A DNA stretch of 21,181 nucleotides from a virus (lineage: Duplodnaviria; Heunggongvirae; Uroviricota; Caudoviricetes). Positions 4,131 to 21,181 of the stretch are shown here, piece after piece (within the stretch, counting starts at the first letter, position 1; each line of letters begins with the position of its first letter). The DNA is taken from the IMG/VR virus record IMGVR_UViG_2703718854_000005; one strand, 5' to 3'. Below the pieces are notes generated by a model. That model did no database searches, was not told the origin of the DNA, and saw only the letters and a list, made by a program, of their open reading frames with translations. A program made the position numbers and the translations under genes.

Positions 4131-4364
4131 TTGTTTTAACCTCATGACAGATTTAAGGATGAACAAATCCCTGCCATTGCTGGCATATAAGAATGAAACC
4201 GGATATTTATTACGGAACTGTTTTAAAGACCTGCCGGGATTTCGATATTATCCTGGTGAATAACTTTATCGACCGGGTACAGAGAATCCACCCATAACAC
4301 TGTTTTTGGTTTTAACTGTTCCGCGTGCGCTCAGCCGCATTCACCACATCACAAAATTCACTTT

Positions 4365-4422
4365 AAAAAGGGCGGCAGAGCAGTCACGGAGTAAAACTGA
4401 TACCGCCAAACGTCACCAGAAA
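4365..4422 (-). ncRNA. dicF: DicF small RNA (ftsZ-targeting sRNA of Qin-type prophages) with its terminator hairpin and U-tail
   Basis: Minus-strand sequence TTTCTGGTGACGTTTGGCGGTATCAGTTTTACTCCGTGACTGCTCTGCCGCCC followed by TTTTT matches DicF as I remember it. Lies downstream of ydfA-ydfB-ydfC as in the dicB operon. Confidence 0.85.
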
Positions 4423-5953: not shown

Positions 5954-6298
5954 ATGCTTAAAACTGACGCTCTTTTGTATTTCGGTTCAAAAACAAAACT
6001 TGCACAAGCAGCAGGTATTCGTTTGGCTTCGCTTTATAGCTGGAAAGGGGATTTAGTTCCCGAAGGTCGCGCGATGCGTCTAGCAGGGAGGATTTGGCGT
6101 GTGCGCAGTGGATCTGGGGGCGGATCGTGGGTCTCTACGAACAGGCAGCCAGTGATGATGGCGAGATCATGCGACCAAAAGAGCCTAACTGGACTGCCTG
6201 GGCCAATGACGTGCGCACAATGCGGATGCTGGATGGCAGAAGCCACAGACAAATTTGCGAAATGTTTGGTCGGGTTCAGCGAGATCCATTCTGGGTAA
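5954..6298 (+). CDS. dicC: DicC-like Cro-type repressor; 3' extent uncertain
   Basis: The first ~43 aa (MLKTDALLYFGSKTKLAQAAGIRLASLYSWKGDLVPEGRAMRL) match DicC as I remember it. The rest of the frame is G/S/W/C-rich and looks non-protein-like, and overlaps an alternative-frame ORF. The end coordinate is just the first stop in frame. Confidence 0.5.
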   Translation: MLKTDALLYFGSKTKLAQAAGIRLASLYSWKGDLVPEGRAMRLAGRIWRVRSGSGGGSWVSTNRQPVMMARSCDQKSLTGLPGPMTCAQCGCWMAEATDKFAKCLVGFSEIHSG

Positions 6299-8583: not shown

Positions 8584-8889
8584 ATACAGCGAACTCCATT
8601 GGTTTAGTTGGATATTTACTGTGCTGGACAAAAACGGTTTGCGGGGAAATCTTAGTTAAGTAGAATGACTGCGGGTGCTTGAGGCTATCTGCCTCGGGCA
8701 TGGACACCAACGGCAGATAGAGAAAAGCCCCAGTTAACATTACGCGTCCTGCAAGACGCTTAACATTAATCTGAGGCCAATTTCATGCTAGACACATGTA
8801 GGTTAGCCTCTTACGTGCCGAAAGGCACGGAGAAGCAGGCTATTGTTAACACCAAGCTGTAATGTCCCCTTTGAACCATTCTAAAATGT

Positions 8890-8917: not shown

Positions 8918-10231
8918 ATGATCAAAGAGACTGTTACGATGAGTCATAAGGAACTCCACCGACTTCAGATTATTCAGGAACAAGCTGCGGCACGCATTGG
9001 CATTTCTATTCGGCAGGTTAAACGTCTGGTGCAACGGTATAGAAATGAAGGGCCTTCTGGTCTGGTTTCCCACCGACGTGGAAAGCGTCCTAATAATTCC
9101 TTTTCTACTGAATTCAGAGCAACAGTAATTTCACTCCTCAAAGGCCGTTACGCTGATTTTGGACCTACGTTTGCGTGCGAAAAATTGCGCGAGATACACG
9201 GTTTATCTTTATCCGTTGAAACTCTCAGAAAGTGGATGATAGAAGAGGGGTTATGGCGTGAACGCCGTCGTAAAATTGCCCGTATATATCAACGCCGCAT
9301 GCGACGACCATCTTACGGTGAACTGATCCAGATTGATGGCTCACCTCATGACTGGTTTGAAAATCGAGGCCCCAGATGTACACTGATCGTATTCATTGAT
9401 GATGCCACCAGTGCGTTGATGGCGTTGCGTTTTGTGCCTGCTGAAACAACCCGGGCTTACATGGAAACCCTCCGGGGTTACCTTAATGATCATGGCGTAC
9501 CGCTCGCTCTCTACTCTGATAGACACAGTATATTCAGGGTAAATAACCCAGAGCGGGAAGGTGAGCTGACCCAGTTCACTCGTGCGATAAAGACACTGGG
9601 CATCGAGCCAATCCATGCCAACAGCCCGCAGGCAAAAGGGCGGGTAGAGCGCGCCAATCAGACACTACAGGACAGGCTGGTCAAAGAAATGCGGCTTCAG
9701 AATATCAGTGATATTGAAACAGCAAATGCATGGTTGCCGACCTTTATTGAAGCCTATAACAACCGGTTCGCTACGTCGCCTCGTACTACTGATAATGCTC
9801 ATCTTGATGTGCACCATTCTGAAGAGGAACTGGGTTATATCTTCAGCCTACAGGCGAAGCGCGTTCTGTCTAAAAATCTCACTTTCCAGTACAAAAGCAG
9901 TGCGTTTCAGGTACGCAGTGAGGGCCGGGGATATCGACTTAGGCATTCGGTTGTTACTGTATGCGAGAACTTTGACGGTGAAATTAACGTTCTGTATGAC
10001 GGGAAAGCGCTGGGCTGGGAAAAGTATGTTGATGGCCCGGAGCCTATACCACTGGATGATGAAAAGAGTGTCCATGAACGAGTGGATAATGCCCGTATTG
10101 ATTTACGCTCAAAATACTATGTTAAACCTAAAGCTGACCATCCCTGGCTTACGCGCCGAACGCAAAGTCATCAGCAAGTTAAGCCCCCGAAGTTACCTAA
10201 AAAGAAGCCTGATCCCGATAAAAAAGATTGA
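8918..10231 (+). CDS. DDE transposase with retroviral-integrase-like (rve) core and N-terminal HTH; IS481/ISNCY-like, family tentative
   Basis: 437-aa ORF. N-terminal HTH-like region (IGISIRQVKRLVQRY), rve-type motifs (IQIDGSPHDW ... YSDRHSIF ... HANSPQAKGRVERANQTLQDRL), K-rich C-terminal tail. No istB-like partner downstream. Confidence 0.85.
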   Translation: MIKETVTMSHKELHRLQIIQEQAAARIGISIRQVKRLVQRYRNEGPSGLVSHRRGKRPNNSFSTEFRATVISLLKGRYADFGPTFACEKLREIHGLSLSVETLRKWMIEEGLWRERRRKIARIYQRRMRRPSYGELIQIDGSPHDWFENRGPRCTLIVFIDDATSALMALRFVPAETTRAYMETLRGYLNDHGVPLALYSDRHSIFRVNNPEREGELTQFTRAIKTLGIEPIHANSPQAKGRVERANQTLQDRLVKEMRLQNISDIETANAWLPTFIEAYNNRFATSPRTTDNAHLDVHHSEEELGYIFSLQAKRVLSKNLTFQYKSSAFQVRSEGRGYRLRHSVVTVCENFDGEINVLYDGKALGWEKYVDGPEPIPLDDEKSVHERVDNARIDLRSKYYVKPKADHPWLTRRTQSHQQVKPPKLPKKKPDPDKKD

Positions 10232-10667
10232 AACCAAGATCGATTCGGTTGAGTGCATATCCATTCATAGGGTAGATTCTTAAGTCGCGTTTCTGGTGTT
10301 CATTTTCGGGTGGTTTGTTACTTGTTTTACCGGGGATATGCCAGAAACGCGCTGAGTCAGTCTGGGCGGTGCGCGTAATGAGGCGTTATGGTAAATAGCC
10401 TATGCTAATGTCCGCTAAGAGCAAGAAGCGGAAGTTGGCAGTTTTGTGGACTGTCCCCACAAAAGTGACTACAGAAATAGTTGCAATTCATAATTGATCA
10501 TGGGTTGTCAGTTAAACTCGTGGCGATTTAAATAGACTAATTGGGAGTGCGTCCATTACTTATATCTTGTAATGTTAACTATCAGAAATGATACAAAGAT
10601 AATATGTCTTTAAAGAAAAGGCTGATGGCGAAAAGTGGCCCGATGAGGGCCACAATACGGCTGTCAC

Positions 10668-11000
10668 TTAGACGTAAATATCAATGGTGCCAGCGGTATT
10701 TGTATCGTCTTTTTTCTCTTCTTTTTTATCAGGCTGAACTGTCGCGTCTTCATTCTTTTTCTCTGCCTGCTGCCTTAACAACTGCTCCAGTTGAGCCCAG
10801 AGGCTTTCAATTTGCTTCTGTACCAATGCAGCCATTTCTTTTTTCTGCTGTGTCGTCATCCCCTCTTCCGATGAGATTTTCCCAAGCTTTTCAGTCAGCA
10901 CCTGAATTTGTCTTGTGATTTTGGCTATTTCTGATGTTCCTTCCGGGGCGGAGTTGTTTGAAATAACGGTTGAGGTATTTCCCTGAATTGTGACAGACAT
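10668..11000 (-). CDS. flxA: FlxA (flagellar-regulon protein of Qin-type prophages)
   Basis: 110-aa ORF matching FlxA as I remember it. GGAGA RBS and a near-consensus sigma-28 promoter upstream. Confidence 0.85.
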   Translation of the reverse strand: MSVTIQGNTSTVISNNSAPEGTSEIAKITRQIQVLTEKLGKISSEEGMTTQQKKEMAALVQKQIESLWAQLEQLLRQQAEKKNEDATVQPDKKEEKKDDTNTAGTIDIYV

Positions 11001-11023
11001 AGATTTCTCCTTTTAAAAAAGCA

Positions 11024-11050
11024 CTATCGGCATGCACAAAAAAATCTTTA
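11024..11050 (-). promoter_or_regulatory. Sigma-28 (FliA) promoter of flxA
   Basis: On the minus strand: TAAAGATT (-35; consensus TAAAGTTT), 11-nt spacer, GCCGATAG (-10; consensus GCCGATAA), about 25 nt upstream of the flxA ATG. Confidence 0.7.
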
Positions 11051-11202
11051 ATCGTATTTCTTGTGTCATTAATTGTTTGATGTTCAGATTGTTTTCCTCG
11101 CGGGCTGGCGCGCCTCAGAAAGTAAAGCTTGTTGACAGGGGTAAACGTTCGGCAATAATTTTCTGCCGCATGCGGGTGTTGCATAAAACGTGTTACGTTC
11201 CT

Positions 11203-11508
11203 TTATCGACAGGTCAGGTCACCGCTCACCCGCCGACGAGAAAGCAACACTGACATGCTAAAGCAAAAAATAGATGAATAAGTTGAGTTGTGCATATGTA
11301 GCCTGACCGTCACAAAGTATATGGTGTCTGTACCAGTAAGATGATGGCCGGACTCTTTAAAAACGAGCTGACCTGCACAATACAGGATGGACTTAGCAAT
11401 GGCTGCTCCTGGCACAAAGCGGACAGTGATCACCGTTCTTACGACTACTTTCTGACTTCCTTCGTGACTTGCCCTAAGCATGTTGTAGTGCGATACTTGT
11501 AATGACAT
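11203..11508 (-). CDS. Dubious 101-aa ORF in the position where K-12 annotates ydfV
   Basis: Length and position between relB and flxA fit ydfV as I remember it. Composition is not convincingly protein-like and it is antisense to the relBE promoter region. Confidence 0.2.
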   Translation of the reverse strand: MSLQVSHYNMLRASHEGSQKVVVRTVITVRFVPGAAIAKSILYCAGQLVFKESGHHLTGTDTIYFVTVRLHMHNSTYSSIFCFSMSVLLSRRRVSGDLTCR

Positions 11509-11532
11509 TTGTAATTACAAGAGGTGTAAGAC
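11480..11532 (+). promoter_or_regulatory. relBE promoter/operator (relO-like)
   Basis: Palindromic TTGTAATGACATTTGTAATTACAAG element containing the perfect palindrome TGTAATTACA, immediately upstream of the relB RBS (GAGGTG). Confidence 0.55.
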
Positions 11533-11772
11533 ATGGGTAGCATTAACCTGCGTATTGACGATGAACTTAAAGCGCGTTCTTACGCCGCGCTTGAAAAAAT
11601 GGGTGTAACTCCTTCTGAAGCGCTTCGTCTCATGCTCGAGTATATCGCTGACAATGAACGCTTGCCGTTCAAACAGACACTCCTGAGTGATGAAGATGCT
11701 GAACTTGTGGAGATAGTGAAAGAACGGCTTCGTAATCCTAAGCCAGTACGTGTGACGCTGGATGAACTCTGA
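11533..11772 (+). CDS. relB: RelB antitoxin
   Basis: 79-aa ORF matching RelB as I remember it (MGSINLRIDDELKARSY...RVTLDEL). Stop overlaps the relE start. Confidence 0.9.
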   Translation: MGSINLRIDDELKARSYAALEKMGVTPSEALRLMLEYIADNERLPFKQTLLSDEDAELVEIVKERLRNPKPVRVTLDEL

Positions 11773-12059
11773 TGGCGTATTTTCTGGATTTTGACGAGCG
11801 GGCACTAAAGGAATGGCGAAAGCTGGGCTCGACGGTACGTGAACAGTTGAAAAAGAAGCTGGTTGAAGTACTTGAGTCACCCCGGATTGAAGCAAACAAG
11901 CTCCGTGGTATGCCTGATTGTTACAAGATTAAGCTCCGGTCTTCAGGCTATCGCCTTGTATACCAGGTTATAGACGAGAAAGTTGTCGTTTTCGTGATTT
12001 CTGTTGGGAAAAGAGAACGCTCGGAAGTATATAGCGAGGCGGTCAAACGCATTCTCTGA
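11772..12059 (+). CDS. relE: RelE mRNA interferase toxin
   Basis: 95-aa ORF matching RelE as I remember it (MAYFLDFDERALKEWRKLG...). Overlapping start/stop with relB. Confidence 0.9.
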   Translation: MAYFLDFDERALKEWRKLGSTVREQLKKKLVEVLESPRIEANKLRGMPDCYKIKLRSSGYRLVYQVIDEKVVVFVISVGKRERSEVYSEAVKRIL

Positions 12060-12130
12060 ACCAAAGCATGACATCTCTGTTTCGCACCGAAGGTGACACT
12101 TCTGCTTTGCGTTGACAGGAGAAGCAGGCT

Positions 12131-12286
12131 ATGAAGCAGCAAAAGGCGATGTTAATCGCCCTGATCGTCATCTGTTTAACCGTCATAGTGACGGCACTGG
12201 TAACGAGGAAAGACCTCTGCGAGGTACGAATCCGAACCGGCCAGACGGAGGTCGCTGTCTTCACAGCTTACGAACCTGAGGAGTAA
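12131..12286 (+). CDS. hokD: HokD (RelF) Hok-family membrane toxin
   Basis: Not in the ORF track (51 aa). Manual translation gives MKQQKAMLIALIVICLTVIVTALVTRKDLCEVRIRTGQTEVAVFTAYEPEE. Lies directly downstream of relE. Confidence 0.85.
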   Translation: MKQQKAMLIALIVICLTVIVTALVTRKDLCEVRIRTGQTEVAVFTAYEPEE

Positions 12287-12354
12287 GAGACCCGGCGGGG
12301 GAGAAATCCCTCGCCACCTCTGATGTGGCAGGCATCCTCAACGCACCCGCACTT

Positions 12355-12380
12355 AACCCGCTTCGGCGGGTTTTTGTTTT
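12355..12380 (+). terminator. Intrinsic terminator downstream of hokD
   Basis: Stem CCCGC (12357..12361), loop ttcg, GCGGG (12366..12370), followed by TTTTTGTTTTTATTTT. Confidence 0.6.
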
Positions 12381-12502
12381 TATTTTCAACGCGTTTGAAG
12401 TTCTGGACGGTGCCGGAATAGAATCAAAAATACTTAAGTAGCGCGCAGGGATAAGAGGGATGGTCCCTTAAAGGGGAGAGCTAATTATCCGGAAGGATTC
12501 TG

Positions 12503-12754
12503 ATGATGAACATCGAAGAACTGCGTAAAATTTTTTGTGAAGATGGCCTCTATGCTGTGTGCGTTGAAAATGGAAATCTTGTTAGTCATTACCGCATTAT
12601 GTGTTTGCGAAAGAATGGGGCTGCGTTAATTAATTTTGTGGATGCTCGGGTCACGGACGGATTTATCTTGCGCGAAGGTGAGTTTGTCACTTCATTACAG
12701 GCATTGAAAGAGATCGGAATAAAAGCTGGCTTTTCTGCTTTTTCAGGAGAATAA
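12503..12754 (+). CDS. rem: Rem-like protein (Qin prophage)
   Basis: 83-aa ORF; size and position between hokD and ydfU match rem. Confidence 0.7.
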   Translation: MMNIEELRKIFCEDGLYAVCVENGNLVSHYRIMCLRKNGAALINFVDARVTDGFILREGEFVTSLQALKEIGIKAGFSAFSGE

Positions 12755-12820
12755 ACTCATCTACAATCTTGCGCGGGGCTGAACTCCCGCTGAGTAACAC
12801 CGTGCCACCGGAGAAAACCG

Positions 12821-13099
12821 ATGGCACGCAACGCAAAATATTACAATTCTGATAATTCGCCCGTTCTTGCCTGCACGCACGGGCGGTATTCTCACGCATT
12901 CAAGTCTGAATGGTTCCAGCACCCTCCATGCACTGCAGAACAGGCCGAATGGCTGATTCATTCTTACCGCAGGCGCGGGTTCGAGGTTAAGAAAGCTCTC
13001 AGTCTCGACTATCGGCACTGGATAATCTCTGTCAGGCTGCCTTATTCCGAACGCCCACCACGTGCGTCCCGCACTTTCCAGCAACGGATCTGGAGGTAA
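12821..13099 (+). CDS. Hypothetical 92-aa protein coupled to ydfU
   Basis: ATG with a GGAGA RBS six nt upstream. Its 3' end contains the GGAGG RBS of the downstream ydfU GTG start. Confidence 0.4.
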   Translation: MARNAKYYNSDNSPVLACTHGRYSHAFKSEWFQHPPCTAEQAEWLIHSYRRRGFEVKKALSLDYRHWIISVRLPYSERPPRASRTFQQRIWR

Positions 13100-13100
13100 C

Positions 13101-14150
13101 GTGCGGGTATTACTTAGACCTGTTCTGGTGCCTGAGCTTGGGCTGGTGGTCCTTAAGCCGGGCCGTGAATCCATACAGATATTTCATAATCCTCGAGTGC
13201 TGGTGGAACCGGAACCAAAAAGCATGCGTAATCTGCCATCCGGAGTCGTTCCTGCCGTTCGCCAGCCGCTGGCGGAAGACAAAACATTGCTGCCGTTTTT
13301 TAGTAACGAACGGGTGATTCGTGCTGCTGGCGGCGTTGGCGCATTGTCCGACTGGCTATTACGTCATGTTACATCCTGCCAGTGGCCTAATGGCGATTAC
13401 CATCACACTGAAACAGTCATTCACCGTTATGGTACCGGCGCAATGGTGTTGTGCTGGCACTGCGACAACCAACTGCGTGACCAGACATCGGAATCACTGG
13501 AGCTGCTTGCTCAACAAAATCTGACAGCATGGGTGATTGACGTCATCCGTCACGCAATAAGCGGTACGCAGGAGCGGGAATTATCTTTGGCTGAATTATC
13601 CTGGTGGGCGGTCTGCAATCAGGTGGTGGATGCACTACCTGAGGCTGTATCGCGTCGTTCGCTGGGATTACCAGCGGAAAAAATCTGCTCGGTGTACCGC
13701 GAAAGCGACATCGTACCGGGAGAGCAGACCGCCACCAGCATATTGAAACAACGCACAAAAAATCTTGCACCGTTGCCTTACGCCCACCAGCAACAAAAAT
13801 CACCACAGGAAAAGACGGTGGTAAGCATCACCGTTGATCCAGAGTCTCCGGAATCTTTCATGAAGCTGCCTAAACGTCGCCGCTGGGTTAAGGAGAAATA
13901 CACACGTTGGGTTAAGACACAGCCGTGTGCTTGCTGCGGTATGCCAGCCGACGATCCGCATCATCTGATTGGTCACGGGCAGGGCGGAATGGGAACAAAA
14001 GCACATGATCTCTTTGTGTTGCCTTTGTGCAGAAAGCATCACAACGAGCTGCATACGGATACAGTGGCATTTGAAGATAAGTATGGCTCTCAACTGGAGC
14101 TGATATTTCGTTTTATCGATCGCGCGCTGGCAATTGGCGTACTGGCGTAA
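13101..14150 (+). CDS. ydfU: YdfU-like DUF968 protein with C-terminal HNH/zinc-finger-like motif
   Basis: GTG start at 13101 (GGAGG four nt upstream) gives 349 aa, the K-12 YdfU length as I recall. C-terminal CACCGMPADDPHHLIGHGQGGMGTKAHDLFVLPLCRKHHNELH is Cys/His-rich. Confidence 0.75.
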   Translation: MRVLLRPVLVPELGLVVLKPGRESIQIFHNPRVLVEPEPKSMRNLPSGVVPAVRQPLAEDKTLLPFFSNERVIRAAGGVGALSDWLLRHVTSCQWPNGDYHHTETVIHRYGTGAMVLCWHCDNQLRDQTSESLELLAQQNLTAWVIDVIRHAISGTQERELSLAELSWWAVCNQVVDALPEAVSRRSLGLPAEKICSVYRESDIVPGEQTATSILKQRTKNLAPLPYAHQQQKSPQEKTVVSITVDPESPESFMKLPKRRRWVKEKYTRWVKTQPCACCGMPADDPHHLIGHGQGGMGTKAHDLFVLPLCRKHHNELHTDTVAFEDKYGSQLELIFRFIDRALAIGVLA

Positions 14151-14163
14151 GTGGAGAACGAGC

Positions 14164-14916
14164 ATGAACCTTGAAGCCTTACCAAAATATTACTCCCCAA
14201 AATCTCCAAAATTGAGCGATGACGCTCCAGCGACAGGCACCGGTTGTTTAACAATTACGGATGTAATGGCAGCGCAGGGGATGGTGCAGTCGAAAGCACC
14301 ACTTGGGTTGGCCTTATTTCTGGCAAAAGTTGGTGTTCAGGACCCTCAGTTTGCGATTGAAGGCCTGCTAAATTACGCGATGGCACTGGATAACCCGACA
14401 TTGAACAAATTGAGTGAAGAAATCCGGTTACAGATTATTCCTTACCTCGTGAGTTTTGCCTTTGCTGATTACTCCAGGTCTGCGGCAAGTAAGGCTCGCT
14501 GTGAGCATTGTTCAGGTACGGGATTTTATAATGTATTGCGCGAAGTGGTGAAACACTACAGACGCGGGGAATCTGTAATCAAGGAAGAATGGGTGAAGGA
14601 ACTATGTCAGCATTGCCATGGTAAGGGCGAAGCCAGCACAGCGTGCAGAGGGTGTAAGGGTAAAGGGATTGTTCTGGATGAAAAAAGAACCCGGTTTCAT
14701 GGCGTACCGGTATATAAGATTTGTGGGCGTTGTAATGGAAACCGGTTTAGTCGTTTACCGACCACGCTGGCACGACGTCATGTCCAGAAGCTGGTACCAG
14801 ACCTGACCGATTATCAGTGGTATAAGGGGTATGCGGACGTCATTGGTAAACTGGTAACAAAGTGCTGGCAGGAAGAAGCATACGCGGAAGCGCAATTGAG
14901 GAAGGTGACGAGATAA
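14164..14916 (+). CDS. quuQ: Late-gene antiterminator Q (phage 82/21-type)
   Basis: ATG 14164 with a GGAG RBS gives 250 aa, the quuQ length as I recall. Cys-rich zinc-binding region (CEHCSGTG ... CQHCHGKG ... CRGCKGKG). Immediately followed by a promoter/terminator pair. Confidence 0.8.
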   Translation: MNLEALPKYYSPKSPKLSDDAPATGTGCLTITDVMAAQGMVQSKAPLGLALFLAKVGVQDPQFAIEGLLNYAMALDNPTLNKLSEEIRLQIIPYLVSFAFADYSRSAASKARCEHCSGTGFYNVLREVVKHYRRGESVIKEEWVKELCQHCHGKGEASTACRGCKGKGIVLDEKRTRFHGVPVYKICGRCNGNRFSRLPTTLARRHVQKLVPDLTDYQWYKGYADVIGKLVTKCWQEEAYAEAQLRKVTR

Positions 14917-14947
14917 ATGATTTTTGCTGAAGATGGCGACATGATGT

Positions 14948-14976
14948 TTGCATTTTTCAAAAAATATGGATAAAAT
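14948..14976 (+). promoter_or_regulatory. Candidate late promoter (PR'-like), just downstream of Q
   Basis: TTGCAT (-35, 14948..14953), 17-nt spacer, TAAAAT (-10, 14971..14976). Expected position for PR'/qut. Confidence 0.45.
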
Positions 14977-15021
14977 TTTTTCAACGATGGGCTTTGTATA
15001 CCCGACGTTAAGAAAAAGTAG

Positions 15022-15051
15022 AAAACCCGCTGATGAGCGGGTTTTGTGCTT
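15022..15051 (+). terminator. Intrinsic terminator (tR'-like) downstream of the candidate late promoter
   Basis: AAAACCCGC-tgatga-GCGGGTTTTGTGCTTT: GC-rich stem flanked by an A-run and a T-run, so potentially bidirectional. Confidence 0.6.
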
Positions 15052-15337
15052 TAAATGGGGCAATGGTAATGTTGAATCTCATCCCGGGACTCATGTCTGT
15101 TAACTTATTATTTAGCTGGTGACTTGGTTATTTGCCTGATGTTTAAAATGTTTTCTTCCAGTATAATGTCCCTAAACACAATGAGTCTGCTTATTATATT
15201 ATTAGCAGAGCTATTACGGCCAAAGTACAGCATAAGCTTTTAAAGCCAATCAACCAGTCATCAAGACAGACGGGGTTATTCATAAAAACTCTCCATGTGT
15301 GATCCGATGGGGCCTGAAATTAAAGCTTTAATATAGC

Positions 15338-15550
15338 TCATGAAAGGTAAACATTGGCAGCTGAAGGGCCACGCAGACCATTTATCCGGCAAAATTCCAC
15401 GCGTAATCCGGTGGTAATTTCTTCTGCATCGCGGAGATTGAGCGCTGAAACATGAAGCTGGACATCGATACGACCATCGGATGGGGTGATAAGACCCTTG
15501 CCGCTTTTGCCGTCAAAGGTTTTGACAATTCCTGTCATTTTACGGGACAA
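15338..15550 (-). CDS. cspF: Cold-shock-family protein CspF
   Basis: 70-aa [42 protein letters not shown]...[10 protein letters not shown] matches CspF as I remember it. Confidence 0.85.
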
Positions 15551-15850
15551 AAAAATTCCTTAATACTGATAACTTGGCGCACTATACACACGTTCCTGAA
15601 GAAAGCTATAGTTTTTTGATGGGGTTGAAGATGGCTGGATGTCTAAAATAAACATTGCTTCATATGTTCAACTATGCGTTAATGATTGCGTCGGTTTGAA
15701 GAACAGACGATATACGAAGTAGTTTACTAAAGCAGTTCTCATTTCAGGTGTTATTCACTTATTCCTTCTTTGAGTCTCTCCAATTAAGTACGAAGTCGTT
15801 TCTGTTATGCAAACCATTTATGCCGAAAGGCTCAAGTTAAGGAATGTAGA

Positions 15851-16066
15851 ATGTCAAATAAAATGACTGGTTTAGTAAAATGGTTTAACGCTGATAAAGG
15901 TTTCGGCTTTATTTCTCCTGTTGATGGTAGTAAAGATGTGTTTGTGCATTTTTCTGCGATTCAGAATGATAATTATCGAACCTTATTTGAAGGTCAAAAG
16001 GTTACCTTCTCTATAGAGAGTGGTGCTAAAGGTCCTGCAGCAGCAAATGTCATCATTACTGATTAA
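15851..16066 (+). CDS. cspB: Cold-shock protein CspB
   Basis: 71-aa ORF with the CspA-family RNP motifs (KGFGFI, VFVHF). Matches CspB as I remember it; preceded by a long AT-rich 5' leader. Confidence 0.85.
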
Positions 16067-16177
16067 AATTCATCGCTCGTCTGTATACGATAACGAAGAA
16101 GGCTGATGCCTGAGTAGAGATACGGACAGAGTAGTGAATATTGGATCTCTTTAATAAAAAGTAAGGAGGTCCAATAC

Positions 16178-16213
16178 ATGAAACAATGGCTAGCATATTT
16201 GGCAAAATCTTAA
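16178..16213 (+). other. 11-codon mini-ORF (MKQWLAYLAKS) with a consensus Shine-Dalgarno
   Basis: TAAGGAGGT at 16162..16170, seven nt before ATG 16178. Followed by a CAGCAG/CTGCTG hairpin and an intrinsic terminator. Confidence 0.3.
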
Positions 16214-16347
16214 TCAGGAAAAGTATGCTAACCATTGTGGTGAAGTGCAGGTTTGCTGCATGAATAGTTTTACAGCAGAAGCTAACTGCTGGCATGGCAA
16301 AACAAAGTGCGTAAGTGGATGACTCCCACAAAAAGCACCACAATCTC

Positions 16348-16373
16348 AAACCCGCTCAGGCGGGTTTTTTATT
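16348..16373 (+). terminator. Intrinsic terminator
   Basis: CCCGC-tcag-GCGGG stem followed by TTTTTTATT. Confidence 0.6.
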
Positions 16374-16429
16374 ATCTGCTTTAAATATATTATTAAAATA
16401 TAAAAAATACTTGTTACTAATAAAATCAA

Positions 16430-16600
16430 TCAGGCTACAGCTTTAAGATTTGTCTGGAATACTTTGTTGCAATGAGGGCAGATCAAAAGGGCACCTTTTT
16501 GTACTCTTGAAAAACTGTGTTCTGACTCTTGGGTGCAGTTTGGGCAGGAACATTTAACGAGATAATTACGGCGTGATTTTGAGTTTTTACGTTCTGACAT
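16430..16600 (-). CDS. Small zinc-ribbon protein (CxxC...CxxC), about 56 aa
   Basis: Track ORF 16430..16651; the internal ATG at 16600 has an AGGAAA RBS. Product MSERKNSKSRRNYLVKCSCPNCTQESEHSFSRVQKGALLICPHCNKVFQTNLKAVA has four Cys in two CxxC pairs. Confidence 0.45.
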   Translation of the reverse strand: MSERKNSKSRRNYLVKCSCPNCTQESEHSFSRVQKGALLICPHCNKVFQTNLKAVA

Positions 16601-16819
16601 AGGCTTTTCCTGTATAAATGGCCGTATACAGTACACTAAATATGAAAACATTTCTCGTATTATTATTTTATATATGACTTTCTTTCAAAATAATTACCCA
16701 CATTTTTAATGTGTATGTTTTTTTAGCGCCGTTGAGAACAACGTGTGCTGTCAAAACTACCCCGTAGACTCCGATCTTTTCAAACATATTGCACCATCCG
16801 TGTACATCGGGGTGAGGAT

Positions 16820-17035
16820 ATGAAATCAATGGATAAGTTAACAACAGGTGTTGCCTATGGCACATCGGCGGGTAATGCTGGTTTCTGGGCATTGCAGTTA
16901 CTCGATAAAGTAACTCCGTCACAGTGGGCTGCAATCGGTGTGCTGGGTAGCCTGGTTTTTGGCCTGCTGACGTATCTGACAAATCTTTATTTCAAGATTA
17001 AAGAAGACAGGCGTAAGGCTGCGAGAGGAGAGTAA
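16820..17035 (+). CDS. essQ: Class II holin/pinholin (S21-like)
   Basis: 71 aa from ATG 16820 (GGTGAGGA RBS). Dual-start Met-Lys-Ser-Met motif, TM segment, charged C-terminus RRKAARGE. Confidence 0.85.
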
Positions 17036-17039
17036 TCCA

Positions 17040-17347
17040 ATGACTCAAGACTATGAACTGGTTGTGAAAGGAGTCCGTAATTTTGAGAATAAAGTTACGG
17101 TAACTGTAGCCTTACAGGACAAAGAACGCTTTGACGGTGAAATTTTTGACCTGGATGTCGCCATGGACCGTGTTGAAGGAGCTGCGCTGGAGTTTTATGA
17201 GGCAGCAGCCAGAAGGAGCGTCCGGCAAGTCTTCCTGGAAGTAGCAGAAAAATTGTCAGAAAAAGTTGAGTCTTATCTGCAGCATCAGTACTCCTTTAAG
17301 ATTGAAAATCCTGCCAATAAGCACGAGCGTCCTCATCATAAATATCT

Positions 17348-17351
<4 letters not shown>
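17040..17351 (+). CDS. ydfR: YdfR-like protein between holin and endolysin
   Basis: 103-aa ORF; length and position match ydfR. Stop overlaps the endolysin start (ATGA). Confidence 0.75.
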
Positions 17352-18375
<1,024 letters not shown>

Positions 18376-18737
18376 GGTAATATTAAATCGGAACATTTAC
18401 ATCGCGGAATGTAAAATTTAAATAAAAAGGACTCTTCCATGAGCCAAAATTCCTGAAATCTTAAGGGTAAGATAAAAGGTCTTAATCAGAATGACACGTT
18501 TTATTAATAAATAAAGCTATTCTTTCATTGCTGTGTTTTTCTTTACAAAAGTAATCCTTGCTATGGGTGGTTAATCATGCGTTAATGGTGTTCTGGTTTG
18601 TTACAAATTTATCTGAAGCAGTCATTGTTATAATTTTATTATTTGTACCTCTTGAGATTTCCTTGTTGGTTTTTCTCTCTGATATTTTTTTTCGGACCAT
18701 TCTGCCCAAGGGCTAATTTCTTCAAAAGGTAATAATT

Positions 18738-18950
18738 ATGTCTAACAAAATGACTGGTTTAGTGAAATGGTTTAACCCTGAAAAAGGTTTTGGTTTCATC
18801 ACGCCGAAAGATGGCAGCAAAGATGTGTTTGTCCATTTCTCAGCAATTCAGAGCAACGATTTCAAAACATTAACTGAGAATCAGGAAGTTGAATTTGGTA
18901 TTGAGAACGGACCTAAAGGTCCTGCCGCTGTTCATGTAGTGGCGCTTTGA
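18738..18950 (+). CDS. cspI: Cold-shock protein CspI
   Basis: 70-aa [73 protein letters not shown] matches CspI as I remember it. Confidence 0.85.
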
Positions 18951-19154
18951 GGTAGACAATATTACAAACCATATTCACTTTAGATGCCCGTGTTGTCATG
19001 GTTCCCAGTATAGAACATCATCTTTTGATGTTTCTGACATGAATCCTTTCGGGGCAAAATGTATCTTTTGTAAATCAATGATGATTACATTTGATAATAT
19101 TTCACAATACTTAAATGCCAGCCGTCTGTCGTTGGATTTAAAAAAGTGAAAATG

Positions 19155-19178
19155 AAGGCTCCTTCGGGAGCTTTTTTG
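19155..19178 (+). terminator. Intrinsic terminator
   Basis: GCTCC-ttcg-GGAGC stem followed by TTTTTT. Confidence 0.55.
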
Positions 19179-19221
19179 CTTGGTGTCTATTCGATGGATA
19201 CTCACATACTACGGTAACATC

Positions 19222-19452
19222 ATGAAAAAAATCATAGTTTTTTTTAACTCTGAACCAGCAGTGATAGTGCCAGCGATGACTGGAGTTAACACCATCATGC
19301 GTGAATATCCAAATGGCGAAAAAACACACCTTACTGTAATGGCCGCAGGGTTTCCATCTCTGACCGGAGATCATAAAGTCATTTATGTAGCCGCGGATCG
19401 ACATGTTACTTCAGAAGAAATTCTGGAAGCAGCAATAAGGCTCTTGAGTTGA
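19222..19452 (+). CDS. Hypothetical 76-aa protein
   Basis: Track ORF 19180..19452 with internal ATG at 19222 (MKKIIVFFNSEPAVIVPAMTG...). Weak RBS. No family recognised. Confidence 0.4.
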   Translation: MKKIIVFFNSEPAVIVPAMTGVNTIMREYPNGEKTHLTVMAAGFPSLTGDHKVIYVAADRHVTSEEILEAAIRLLS

Positions 19453-19620
19453 TTTGATGCTATTGCATTGATAATTCAGGAAAATTCTCTTTGTCTGTTT
19501 GTGTAAAATTTAGACTATCGTATGTTGATTATTGCGATGTTTCATCTTATCTTTTACACGTTTGCACCATATAATCGACTTACTGTGTAACTGGAAAGTC
19601 ATAACAGACTAAAAGAGGAA

Positions 19621-19796
19621 ATGATGAATATTGAAAACTTAAAAACAAAAGCAGAAGCAGATATTTCTGAATATATAACAAAAAAAATTATTGAACTTAA
19701 GAAAAAGACCGGGAAAGAAGTTACCAGTATTCAGTTTACCGCACGGGAAAAATGACGGGTCTTGAAAGCTATGATGTCAAGATTAATTTAATCTGA
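19621..19796 (+). pseudogene. gnsB: GnsA/GnsB-family gene disrupted by a -1 frameshift in an A5 run
   Basis: ATG 19621 (AGAGGAA RBS) gives MMNIENLKTKAEADISEYITKKIIELKKKTGKEVTSIQFTAREK, then stop. The +1 frame continues MTGLESYDVKINLI. GnsA/B as I recall reads ...FTAREKMTGLESYDVKI... continuously, so one A is missing in the run at 19748..19752. Confidence 0.6.
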
Positions 19797-19947
19797 TGTA
19801 TTCAATAATAAAATTTATCCATAAACCTCGTTTTTACGGGGTTTTGTTATATTTGAATGGTTCCGAATATCTAAATCACAATTGTTGATGGTTTTTATTA
19901 AACCAATGCAGTCCGGCTCAGGAGTGAGAGAAGCCGGACGTTATGGT

Positions 19948-20358
19948 TTAGCGTGGTAAGATCTGTGTAGTTTTCTGGATGCTTTCAGTAAATAGTAATG
20001 AATTATCAAAGGTATAGTAATATCTTTTTTGTTCGTGGATATTTGTAACCCACCGAAAAACTCCTGCTTTAGCAAGGTTTCTTCTGTATTCCTGAAATGT
20101 GATCTCTCTGGATTTCAGCTTATTAGAGGTCGTTTCTATAAGATGCCTATCCTTTGAAAATTTGACAGACACAATGTTTTTTAGGCCCTTTAATAACACT
20201 GTATTATCATTTTTTAATACAATATGAACATTCTCTGTGGCTAAATAGTAAATGTAATGTGAGACATTGTGACGTTTTAGCTCAGAATAAAACCATTGAT
20301 AGTTTAAATCGTTTCGAACTTTATCAAATATTTGTTTAAAAATGACTACCTGATCCAT
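19948..20358 (-). CDS. ydfO: YdfO-like protein (DUF1398-type)
   Basis: Track ORF extends to 20373; the ATG at 20358 has a GGAAGG RBS and gives 136 aa. Position between gnsB and nohA matches ydfO. Confidence 0.7.
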
Positions 20359-20415
20359 AGATAAACCTTCCATGTGATATGAGGGGGCGTAGTCTGCACG
20401 ATTATCTAAATTGCT

Positions 20416-20649
20416 TCAATCTGGTCTGACCTGTTTTCTGAGCAATTCAGTAATGTCACTCTTTTCTTTGTTTGCTTCAGAAGAAACTCTTTTTTCTGAG
20501 CACAGTCTCCGGCGGCAGGCTTCAATGACCCAGGCTGAGAAATTCCCGGACCCTTTTTGCTCAAGAGCGATGTTAATTTGTTCAATCATTTGGTTAGGAA
20601 AGCGGATGTTGCGGGTTGTTGTTCTGCGGGTTCTGTTCTTCGTTGACAT
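20416..20649 (-). CDS. Small basic protein with ribbon-helix-helix-like segment (77 aa)
   Basis: N-terminal Arg/Thr-rich tail, then IRFPNQMIEQINIALEQKGSGNFSAWVIEACRRRL, which resembles an RHH DNA-binding fold. Upstream of ydfO on the same strand. Confidence 0.5.
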   Translation of the reverse strand: MSTKNRTRRTTTRNIRFPNQMIEQINIALEQKGSGNFSAWVIEACRRRLCSEKRVSSEANKEKSDITELLRKQVRPD

Positions 20650-20699
20650 GAGGTTGCCCCGTATTCAGTGTCGCTGATTTGTATTGTCTGAAGTTGTTT

Positions 20700-21037
20700 T
20701 TACGTTAAGTTGATGCAGATCAATTAATACGATACCTGCGTCATAATTGATTATTTGACGTGGTTTGATGGCCTCCACGCACGTTGTGATATGTAAATGA
20801 TAATCATTATCACTTTACGGGTCCTTTCCGGTGATCCGACAGGTTACGGGGCGGCGACCTCGCGGGTTTTCGCTATTTATGAAAATTTTCCGGTTTAAGG
20901 TGTTTCCGTTCTTCTTCGTCGTAACTTAATGTTTTTATTTAAAATACCCCCTGAAAAGAAAGGAAACGACAGGTGCTGAAAGCGGGCTTTTTGGCCTTTG
21001 TCGTTTCCTTTCTCTGTTTTTGTCCGTGGAATGAACA
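20700..21037 (+). other. Lambda-type cos region (cosQ, cosN, cosB); cosN 12-nt cohesive-end sequence at 20849..20860
   Basis: GGGCGGCGACCT at 20849..20860 preceded by ...GACAGGTTACG and followed by CGCGGGTTTTCGCTATTTATGAAAATTTTCCGGTTTAAGG..., which matches the lambda genome ends as I remember them. Sits directly upstream of the Nu1 start. Confidence 0.85.
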
Positions 21038-21181
21038 ATGGAAGTCAACAAAAAGCAGCTGGCTGACATTTTCGGTGCGAGTATCCGTACCATTCAGAAC
21101 TGGCAGGAACAGGGAATGCCCGTTCTGCGAGGCGGTGGCAAGGGTAATGAGGTGCTTTATGATTCTGCCGCCGTCATAAAA
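21038..21181 (+). CDS. nohA: Terminase small subunit (lambda Nu1 homolog), 5' partial, runs off the window
   Basis: Manual translation from ATG 21038 gives MEVNKKQLADIFGASIRTIQNWQEQGMPVLRGGGKGNEVLYDSAAVIK, the Nu1 N-terminal winged-HTH as I remember it. The track ORF at 20973 is a different frame. Confidence 0.9.
   Translation, partial: MEVNKKQLADIFGASIRTIQNWQEQGMPVLRGGGKGNEVLYDSAAVIK

What the first reader, a model, noticed from the sequence alone, without database searches (positions are those of the whole stretch)
19621..19796. GnsA/GnsB-family gene split by a -1 frameshift in a homopolymeric A run
The two halves reconstitute a GnsA/B-like protein if the A5 run at 19748..19752 is read as A6. 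This is either a pseudogene, a sequencing error, or a slippage-prone site that could give phase-variable expression.
Basis: partly seen in the sequence, partly recalled or inferred. Interest (0 to 1): 0.45.

Follow-up and report, generated by a model that had tools for sequence, protein, structure and literature searches.

The report
Frameshifted gnsB pseudogene in Qin prophage
A small prophage gene of E. coli (gnsB) has lost one A from a run of six, which cuts the protein from 57 to 43 residues; the deletion is real and inherited in one bacterial lineage, and it is an ordinary gene-inactivating mutation rather than a switch or a sequencing mistake.

Summary
The window is a Qin-type cryptic prophage of E. 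coli. The last 14 codons sit intact in the -1 frame and end at 19796.

A6 is the normal state: 1501 of 1502 RefSeq complete E. coli records, 118/118 IMG/VR contigs, 54/54 metagenome contigs and 4/4 GTDB representatives.

A5 is still not a sequencing error. Using a private SNP of the window (YnfN V15I) as a marker, I found an NCBI assembly identical to the window over 11,960 bases. I also found four separately assembled SRA runs with 0 differences, all with A5. A5 also recurs on at least 8 other haplotypes, so it is a recurrent slippage deletion.

The lost segment is nearly invariant in the family and forms the second strand of the beta-hairpin, so the product is very probably inactive. There is no frameshift signal. 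The population frequencies do not fit phase variation.

Verdict: a genuine, recent lineage pseudogene of a known gene. Low interest.

The parts
19624..19755 (+). Truncated gnsB reading frame: 43 codons plus TGA. An alternative upstream ATG at 19621 would give 44 aa.
   Evidence: Pfam PF08178 positions 1-43 of 54, 88.4 bits.
19748..19752 (+). A5 run. It is A6 in wild-type gnsB, so this is the site of the 1-bp deletion.
   Evidence: single gap against K-12, O55:H7. A6 in 1501/1502 RefSeq records, 118/118 viral, 54/54 metagenome and 4/4 GTDB loci.
19752..19796 (+). Orphaned 3' part of gnsB in the -1 frame: MTGLESYDVKINLI plus TGA. It has no substitutions relative to K-12.
   Evidence: This segment is nearly invariant in the family and forms beta-strand 2 (residues 46-56) in the model, which matches the GnsA crystal structures.
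19615..19619 (+). Shine-Dalgarno-like GAGGA, 4 nt before the ATG at 19624.
   Evidence: Read from the sequence. Inference.
19673..19680 (+). Second, longer poly-A tract (A8) inside gnsB. It is intact here but is A7 or A9 in about 10 of about 172 unselected loci, and A7 in a same-haplotype relative (L197).
19823..19844 (+). Terminator-like hairpin followed by a T-rich tail, downstream of gnsB.
   Evidence: 1 found against 0.2 expected in shuffles.
19222..19452 (+). ynfN, the upstream neighbour. It carries the private SNP 19264A (V15I), used as the lineage marker to trace the allele.

Best explanation
This is gnsB of a Qin-type cryptic lambdoid prophage of E. coli, inactivated by a genuine, heritable 1-bp deletion (A6 to A5). 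The deletion most probably arose by replication slippage in the short homopolymer. Translation from ATG 19624 ends at the new TGA (19753-19755) and gives a 43-residue fragment. That fragment keeps the N-terminal helix and the first beta-strand but lacks the conserved second strand of the hairpin, so it is very probably non-functional (inferred). The allele is fixed in one lineage. The same deletion has arisen independently on other haplotypes, as expected for a slippage-prone but otherwise ordinary site in a dispensable prophage gene. Shown here: the lesion, its rarity, its reproducibility across independent data sets, its recurrence, and the loss of a conserved structural element. Inferred: the slippage mechanism, the loss of function and the absence of selection.
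For: Gene identity and synteny: cspI-ynfQ-ynfR-ynfN-gnsB-ydfO-ynfO-nohA, as in K-12 and O55:H7.
Lesion: a single gap in the A-run and no other difference in the gene.
A6 is ancestral: 1501/1502 RefSeq complete records, 118/118 IMG/VR, 54/54 metagenome and 4/4 GTDB loci.
The allele is real and inherited. L190 (GCA_054792755.1) is identical to window 9222-21181. Logan contigs from SRR35114290, ERR10227655, SRR36113055 and SRR23696854 are identical to the window, including A5 and the private SNPs. L195 carries A5 plus 19264A with further SNPs. L192 carries 19264A with an intact A6, which is the likely ancestral state.
The assembly is not error-prone: across about 150 aligned loci, this is the only indel at which the window departs from the majority.
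Recurrence: A5 sits on at least 8 haplotypes, and 4 of these have A6 members with identical flanks.
Loss of function: the C-terminal 14 residues are at least 90% conserved across Escherichia, Citrobacter and Hafnia homologues, which are all about 57 aa. The AlphaFold model gives helix 3-29 and strands 33-43 and 46-56, and matches GnsA 4xo1/4xo2 with TM 0.82 and rmsd 1.6 A.
Annotation: PGAP labels the same lesion in NZ_CP044403.1 as a 'frameshifted' pseudogene.
Context: the prophage is decaying in other ways too, with dicB and ydaT-like genes absent and dicC truncated.
Against: No read data could be inspected directly. Some of the Logan runs may be the reads of the same strain as the assembly, so the number of truly independent isolates is uncertain (at least two, judged from accession series and dates). 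Loss of function is inferred from conservation and a structural model, not measured. A closely related contig (L197) carries a different frameshift (A7 in the A8 tract, with A6 here). This could hint at selection for inactivation, or at higher mutability than 'ordinary'.
Confidence: 0.85

Rival explanations
1. Sequencing or assembly error: the true genome has A6, and the A5 is a homopolymer miscall of a long-read assembly.
For: The source-like record is a 4.84-Mb contig, so it is probably long-read based. Several other A5 carriers are PacBio-era NCTC assemblies, and one of them (L006) is full of homopolymer deletions. The only RefSeq complete genome with A5 also has a T5-to-T4 change 80 bp away.
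Against: Four SRA runs assembled independently by Logan give the identical sequence with A5 and the same private SNPs, with 0 differences. The window has no other majority-discordant indel across about 12 kb with good comparison depth. A divergent relative (L195) also carries A5 together with the marker SNP.
Confidence: 0.03
2. Contingency locus or phase variation: the poly-A tracts of gnsB (A8 at 19673-19680, A6 at 19748-19753 in wild type) switch the gene off and on at an appreciable rate, giving heterogeneous expression of a toxic or membrane-modifying protein.
For: A5 has arisen repeatedly on different haplotypes. The A8 tract varies (A7 or A9) in about 10 of about 172 unselected loci. Within the window's own haplotype there are two different frameshift alleles (A8/A5, and A7/A6 in L197), plus an intact near relative, L192.
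Against: A tract of 5-6 A is short. A5 is 1/1502 in complete genomes and 0/176 in unselected viral, metagenome and GTDB loci. A locus that switches often should show both states commonly. Within the lineage, A5 is stably inherited with linked SNPs. Variation elsewhere in the window is concentrated in runs of at least 8 nt, as expected for neutral slippage or sequencing noise. Many of the A8 variants come from older draft assemblies and could be errors.
Confidence: 0.05
3. Translational rescue: -1 ribosomal slippage of tRNA-Lys on A_AAA before the UGA (or transcriptional slippage) restores the frame and yields exact wild-type GnsB at a useful level, so the gene is still expressed.
For: Read from the sequence: a -1 shift of P-site tRNA-Lys from AAA (19750-19752) to AAA (19749-19751) is fully cognate and would place AUG in the A site, giving the exact wild-type sequence. 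The stop codon is UGA followed by C, which I recall as a weak termination context (own knowledge).
Against: Z_ZZ.N tetramers without a stimulator give about 0.15% against 0.11% background in E. coli, and A_AA.A is the weakest of the six responsive motifs even with a strong pseudoknot (PMC4066793). No structure lies downstream (MFE -6.6 kcal/mol, z +0.87). The arrangement is not conserved, since homologues and 99.9% of alleles are single in-frame ORFs. A5 is too short for efficient transcriptional slippage (own knowledge).
Confidence: 0.04
4. The 43-residue fragment is itself functional, either as a shortened GnsB or as a dominant-negative partner of GnsA.
For: The fragment keeps the helix and the first strand, and it still scores 88 bits against PF08178. 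It is stably inherited.
Against: No natural homologue ends there; lengths are 57 aa. The missing 14 residues are the most conserved stretch between GnsA and GnsB and form half of the hairpin. The untranslated remainder shows no sign of a new function.
Confidence: 0.03

Closest known systems
GnsB (ydfY) of the E. coli K-12 Qin prophage, 57 aa (WP_001019606.1)
   Same: Same locus and synteny (cspI-ynfQ-ynfR-ynfN-gnsB-ydfO-ynfO). The nucleotide sequence of the gene is identical apart from one missing A. According to Sugai et al. 2001, as cited in PMC10607373 and bioRxiv 10.1101/2024.03.27.586906, overexpressed gnsA/gnsB raise unsaturated fatty acids and suppress fabA6(Ts) and secG-null cold sensitivity.
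   Different: Here the reading frame ends after residue 43, so the conserved C-terminal strand is not translated.
GnsA (yccL), crystal structures 4XO1 and 4XO2; proposed toxin of a YmcE-GnsA pair
   Same: Paralogue. Phmmer E = 5e-20 over residues 1-56, and the C-terminal MTGLESYDVKI is identical. The model of GnsB superposes with TM 0.82.
   Different: GnsA is chromosomal (cspG-ymcF-ymcE-gnsA) and full length. Whether GnsB has an antitoxin partner was not tested here.
gnsB pseudogene of E. coli NMBU-W10C18 (NZ_CP044403.1, F7O57_RS12955, 'frameshifted')
   Same: Same A6-to-A5 lesion, annotated by PGAP as a frameshifted pseudogene.
   Different: Different haplotype: it lacks 19264A, 17961T and 20796A and has a T-run deletion at window position 19831. 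It is an independent event, or an assembly error in that record.

Membership tests
GnsA/GnsB family (Pfam PF08178) | Significant match to the family profile | tested here: met
   88.4 bits against a cut-off of 27 for the 43-aa product; 120.3 bits after restoring one A.
GnsA/GnsB family (Pfam PF08178) | Complete protein of about 57 aa that covers the whole profile, including the conserved C-terminal MTGLESYD[IV]KI | tested here: not met
   The encoded product covers profile positions 1-43 of 54 only. Homologues are 57 aa with a nearly invariant C-terminus. The gene is therefore a disrupted member (pseudogene), not an intact one.
GnsA/GnsB family (Pfam PF08178) | Fold of one helix plus a beta-hairpin, as in GnsA 4XO1/4XO2 | tested here: met
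   Tested on the full-length close homologue P0003 (95% identical to the window's 43 encoded residues): H3-29, E33-43, E46-56, pLDDT 78; TM 0.82 and rmsd 1.6 A to 4xo1. The window's product would lack E46-56.
GnsB orthologue of the Qin prophage | Conserved position between ynfN and ydfO in a Qin-type prophage | tested here: met
   99.9% identity to Qin-type prophages over 21 kb, with the same gene order.
GnsB orthologue of the Qin prophage | Overexpression increases unsaturated fatty acids and suppresses secG-null and fabA6 | not testable with these tools
   Known only from the literature for the intact gene.
Phase-variable (contingency) locus | Both tract lengths common among related strains | tested here: not met
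   A5 in 1/1502 RefSeq complete records. 0/118 viral, 0/54 metagenome and 0/4 GTDB loci.
Phase-variable (contingency) locus | Long repeat tract (typically at least 8 nt for homopolymers) with a high measured switching rate | tested here: inconclusive
   The tract here is only 5-6 nt. A separate A8 tract in the gene does vary in about 6% of unselected loci, but sequencing error cannot be excluded. Switching rates are not measurable here.
Programmed -1 ribosomal frameshift | Frameshift arrangement conserved among homologues, with a slippery heptamer and a stimulator | tested here: not met
   Homologues are single ORFs. There is no canonical X_XXZ_ZZN motif (the sequence is G_GAA_AAA). There is no downstream structure. 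Tetramer efficiency is about background (PMC4066793).
Type II toxin-antitoxin toxin (as the family is named in RefSeq and Pfam) | Adjacent cognate antitoxin gene and demonstrated toxicity | not tested
   The literature proposes only YmcE-GnsA. No YmcE comparison was done for the neighbours of gnsB.

The most novel reading that the evidence does not exclude
gnsB could be a low-rate contingency gene of Qin-type prophages. Its two poly-A tracts (A8 and A6) would be repeatedly hit, and inactivation would be favoured in some lineages because the product is toxic or perturbs membrane lipid composition. That would explain recurrent A5 alleles on at least 8 haplotypes and two different frameshifts within one haplotype.
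Probability: 0.06. Interest if true: 0.35.

Novelty: already known. Interest (0 to 1): 0.1.

Why it matters
It matters mainly for annotation. The gene should be labelled a frameshifted gnsB pseudogene in this lineage, not a 43/44-aa protein and not an assembly error. It also shows that a homopolymer indel in a long-read assembly can be checked without reads. A linked private SNP can be used to find independent assemblies of the same lineage. Biologically it is one more step in the decay of a cryptic prophage, and a chromosomal paralogue, gnsA, is known in E. coli K-12 (not checked for this strain).

Tried and rejected
The denominator came instead from RefSeq, IMG/VR, metagenome and GTDB pattern counts.
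- The contig count for the exact 43-aa product (169) was not used as a frequency.
- Sugai et al. 2001 (PMC95442) is not held, so its findings are cited second-hand.
- The 81-bp search around the A8 tract in RefSeq could not separate tract-length variants from SNP alleles, so it was not used quantitatively.
- An initial suspicion that the window's private SNPs (9391, 15164, 19264, 20796) meant a poor assembly was dropped once independent runs reproduced those in the region they cover (19264A; 20796A only in L190).
- Ribosomal and transcriptional rescue were considered and rejected as significant.
- No sigma-70 consensus promoter was found at 19400-20000, so nothing can be said about transcription of the gene from these scans.

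Full report
**What is there.** The window is a Qin-type cryptic lambdoid prophage of Escherichia coli. It is 99.9% identical over its full 21 kb to the corresponding region of many complete genomes. The gene order at its right end is essD-ydfR-rrrQ-rzpQ-cspI-ynfQ-ynfR-ynfN-gnsB-ydfO-ynfO-nohA, as annotated in K-12 MG1655 and O55:H7 USDA5905.

The finding lies on gnsB. The sequence reads CGG GAA AAA TGA, with five A at 19748-19752 and a stop at 19753-19755. The mechanical ORF is 19621..19755, 44 aa. The RefSeq start maps to the second ATG, 19624, which also has the better spacing to GAGGA at 19615-19619, so the product is 43 aa.

The rest of the gene, ATG ACG GGT ... ATC TGA (19752-19796), encodes MTGLESYDVKINLI in the -1 frame and has no substitutions. 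Against K-12 and O55:H7 the gene differs by exactly one missing A. Pfam PF08178 matches positions 1-43 of 54 for the encoded product, and 1-54 of 54 once one A is restored. The restored protein aligns with GnsA of PDB entries 4XO1 and 4XO2 at E = 5e-20.

**How common each state is.** An 81-bp query centred on the run discriminates the two alleles by identity band.
- RefSeq complete E. coli: 1 of 1502 matching records is identical (A5), and 1501 carry the extra A.
- The single A5 record, NMBU-W10C18, is annotated by PGAP as a 'frameshifted' gnsB pseudogene. It lies on a different haplotype and has a second homopolymer deletion 80 bp away.
- A pattern that accepts either run length found A6 in 118 of 118 IMG/VR contigs, 54 of 54 metagenome contigs and 4 of 4 GTDB species representatives.
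- Homologues in Escherichia, Citrobacter and Hafnia are 57 aa. None of the best 120 cluster representatives ends at residue 43 or 44.

A6 is therefore the ancestral and nearly universal state.

**Error or real.** The window carries four substitutions that none of the roughly 190 fetched loci has (9391, 15164, 19264, 20796). The allele 19264A is absent from 1564 complete genomes. It changes YnfN Val15 to Ile, which let me search for that exact protein.

The search returned an NCBI assembly, GCA_054792755.1 (contig JBTWUC010000001.1), which is identical to window 9222-21181 with no difference at all. This is the source or a clone-mate. It also returned contigs that Logan assembled independently from SRA runs SRR35114290, ERR10227655, SRR36113055 and SRR23696854. 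These are identical to the window over 1.3-2.6 kb, including A5 and the linked private SNPs. A further contig (L195) has A5 and 19264A with additional SNPs. L192 has 19264A with an intact A6, which is the likely ancestral state of the clade.

Across about 150 aligned loci, the A-run is the only indel at which the window departs from the majority, so the assembly is not generally prone to homopolymer errors. I conclude that the deletion is real and inherited. One caveat remains: some of the runs may be reads of the same strain, so the number of independent isolates is at least two rather than five.

**Recurrence.** A look-up of the exact 43-aa product found long contigs in NCBI, ENA and Logan data. 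All ten fetched loci carry A5. In a haplotype analysis of 18600-20400 they fall on at least eight haplotypes, and four of these also contain A6 members with identical flanks. The same deletion has thus arisen repeatedly. In the three PacBio-era NCTC assemblies it may have been miscalled repeatedly instead, and one of those is full of homopolymer deletions. This is the behaviour expected of a short homopolymer.

**Consequence for the protein.** The 14 missing residues are at least 90% conserved in 22 homologues and are the most conserved stretch between GnsA and GnsB. An AlphaFold model of a full-length close homologue gives helix 3-29 and a hairpin of strands 33-43 and 46-56 (pLDDT 78). It superposes on the GnsA crystal structures with TM 0.82 and rmsd 1.6 A. 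The truncation removes the whole second strand. Loss of function is therefore likely, but it is inferred, not measured.

According to the literature, overexpressed gnsA or gnsB raises the unsaturated fatty-acid content and suppresses fabA6(Ts), secG-null cold sensitivity and related defects, by an unknown mechanism. GnsA has been proposed as the toxin of a YmcE-GnsA pair.

**Rivals.**
- Phase variation is not supported. The tract is short, the off state is about 0.07% in complete genomes and absent from 176 unselected loci, and within the lineage A5 is stably linked to marker SNPs. There is a weak hint in its favour: gnsB contains a longer A8 tract (19673-19680) that is A7 or A9 in about 10 of about 172 unselected loci. 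Also, a contig with the window's own haplotype (L197) has A7 there together with A6 at the second run, which is a different frameshift. Sequencing noise cannot be excluded for these.
- Translational rescue is formally possible, because a -1 slip of tRNA-Lys on A_AAA before UGA would give the exact wild-type protein. However, such tetramers work at about background level without a stimulator (PMC4066793). There is no downstream structure (z = +0.87), and the arrangement is not conserved.

**Context and verdict.** The prophage is decaying elsewhere too. Relative to the best-matching genomes it lacks dicB and a ydaT-like gene, dicC is cut at residue 43, and the next gene lacks its first 206 codons. 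The DicF RNA is retained.

The finding is a correctly read, genuine, recent frameshift pseudogene of a known accessory gene. It is fixed in one E. coli lineage and recurrent elsewhere. It is ordinary and already covered by standard annotation practice. Interest is low.

Noticed in passing
window 4266-4282 and 6081-6099 (deletion junctions): Relative to O55:H7 USDA5905 and all best RefSeq hits, the window lacks about 390 bp that contain dicB. It also lacks about 1.18 kb that contain a ydaT-like gene, the 3' part of dicC (cut at residue 43 of 76) and the first 206 codons of the next gene. No complete genome in the collection matched the window in fewer than three aligned pieces.
   Followed up: partly
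window 4370-4421 (-): DicF sRNA (Rfam RF00039, 76.7 bits) is retained although its operon partner dicB is gone.
   Followed up: no
window 19673-19680; L197 (SRR19777192): An A8 tract inside gnsB is A7 or A9 in about 10 of about 172 unselected viral and metagenome loci. L197, which is otherwise identical to the window over 17692-19854, has A7 here together with A6 at the second run. This is an independent gnsB frameshift in the same haplotype.
   Followed up: partly
window 19238-19245: A T8 run near the start of ynfN is T7 in K-12 MG1655 (PGAP: ynfN 'frameshifted') and in 28 of about 157 loci. The window has the intact T8 form.
   Followed up: partly
window 9391, 15164, 19264, 20796: Four substitutions are private to the window's lineage among the loci first compared (about 190 fetched up). 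19264A (YnfN V15I) is absent from 1564 RefSeq complete genomes and served as the lineage marker.
   Followed up: yes
window 8673-8844 (+): An Rfam sok antitoxin RNA hit (104 bits) lies just upstream of an intact 437-aa ISNCY-family transposase ORF (8918-10231). It is separate from the hokD locus further right and may be a remnant of a second hok/sok locus.
   Followed up: no
window 15690-16082 and 18592-18977 (+): Two cspA-type thermoregulator 5' UTRs (Rfam RF01766) lie ahead of cspB and cspI. gnsB sits in a cluster of cold-shock genes, as gnsA does next to cspG.
   Followed up: no
L133 (JAGZPX010000007.1): A GTDB representative labelled as a Veillonella parvula MAG carries an E. coli gnsB-containing scaffold. 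This is probably binning contamination.
   Followed up: no
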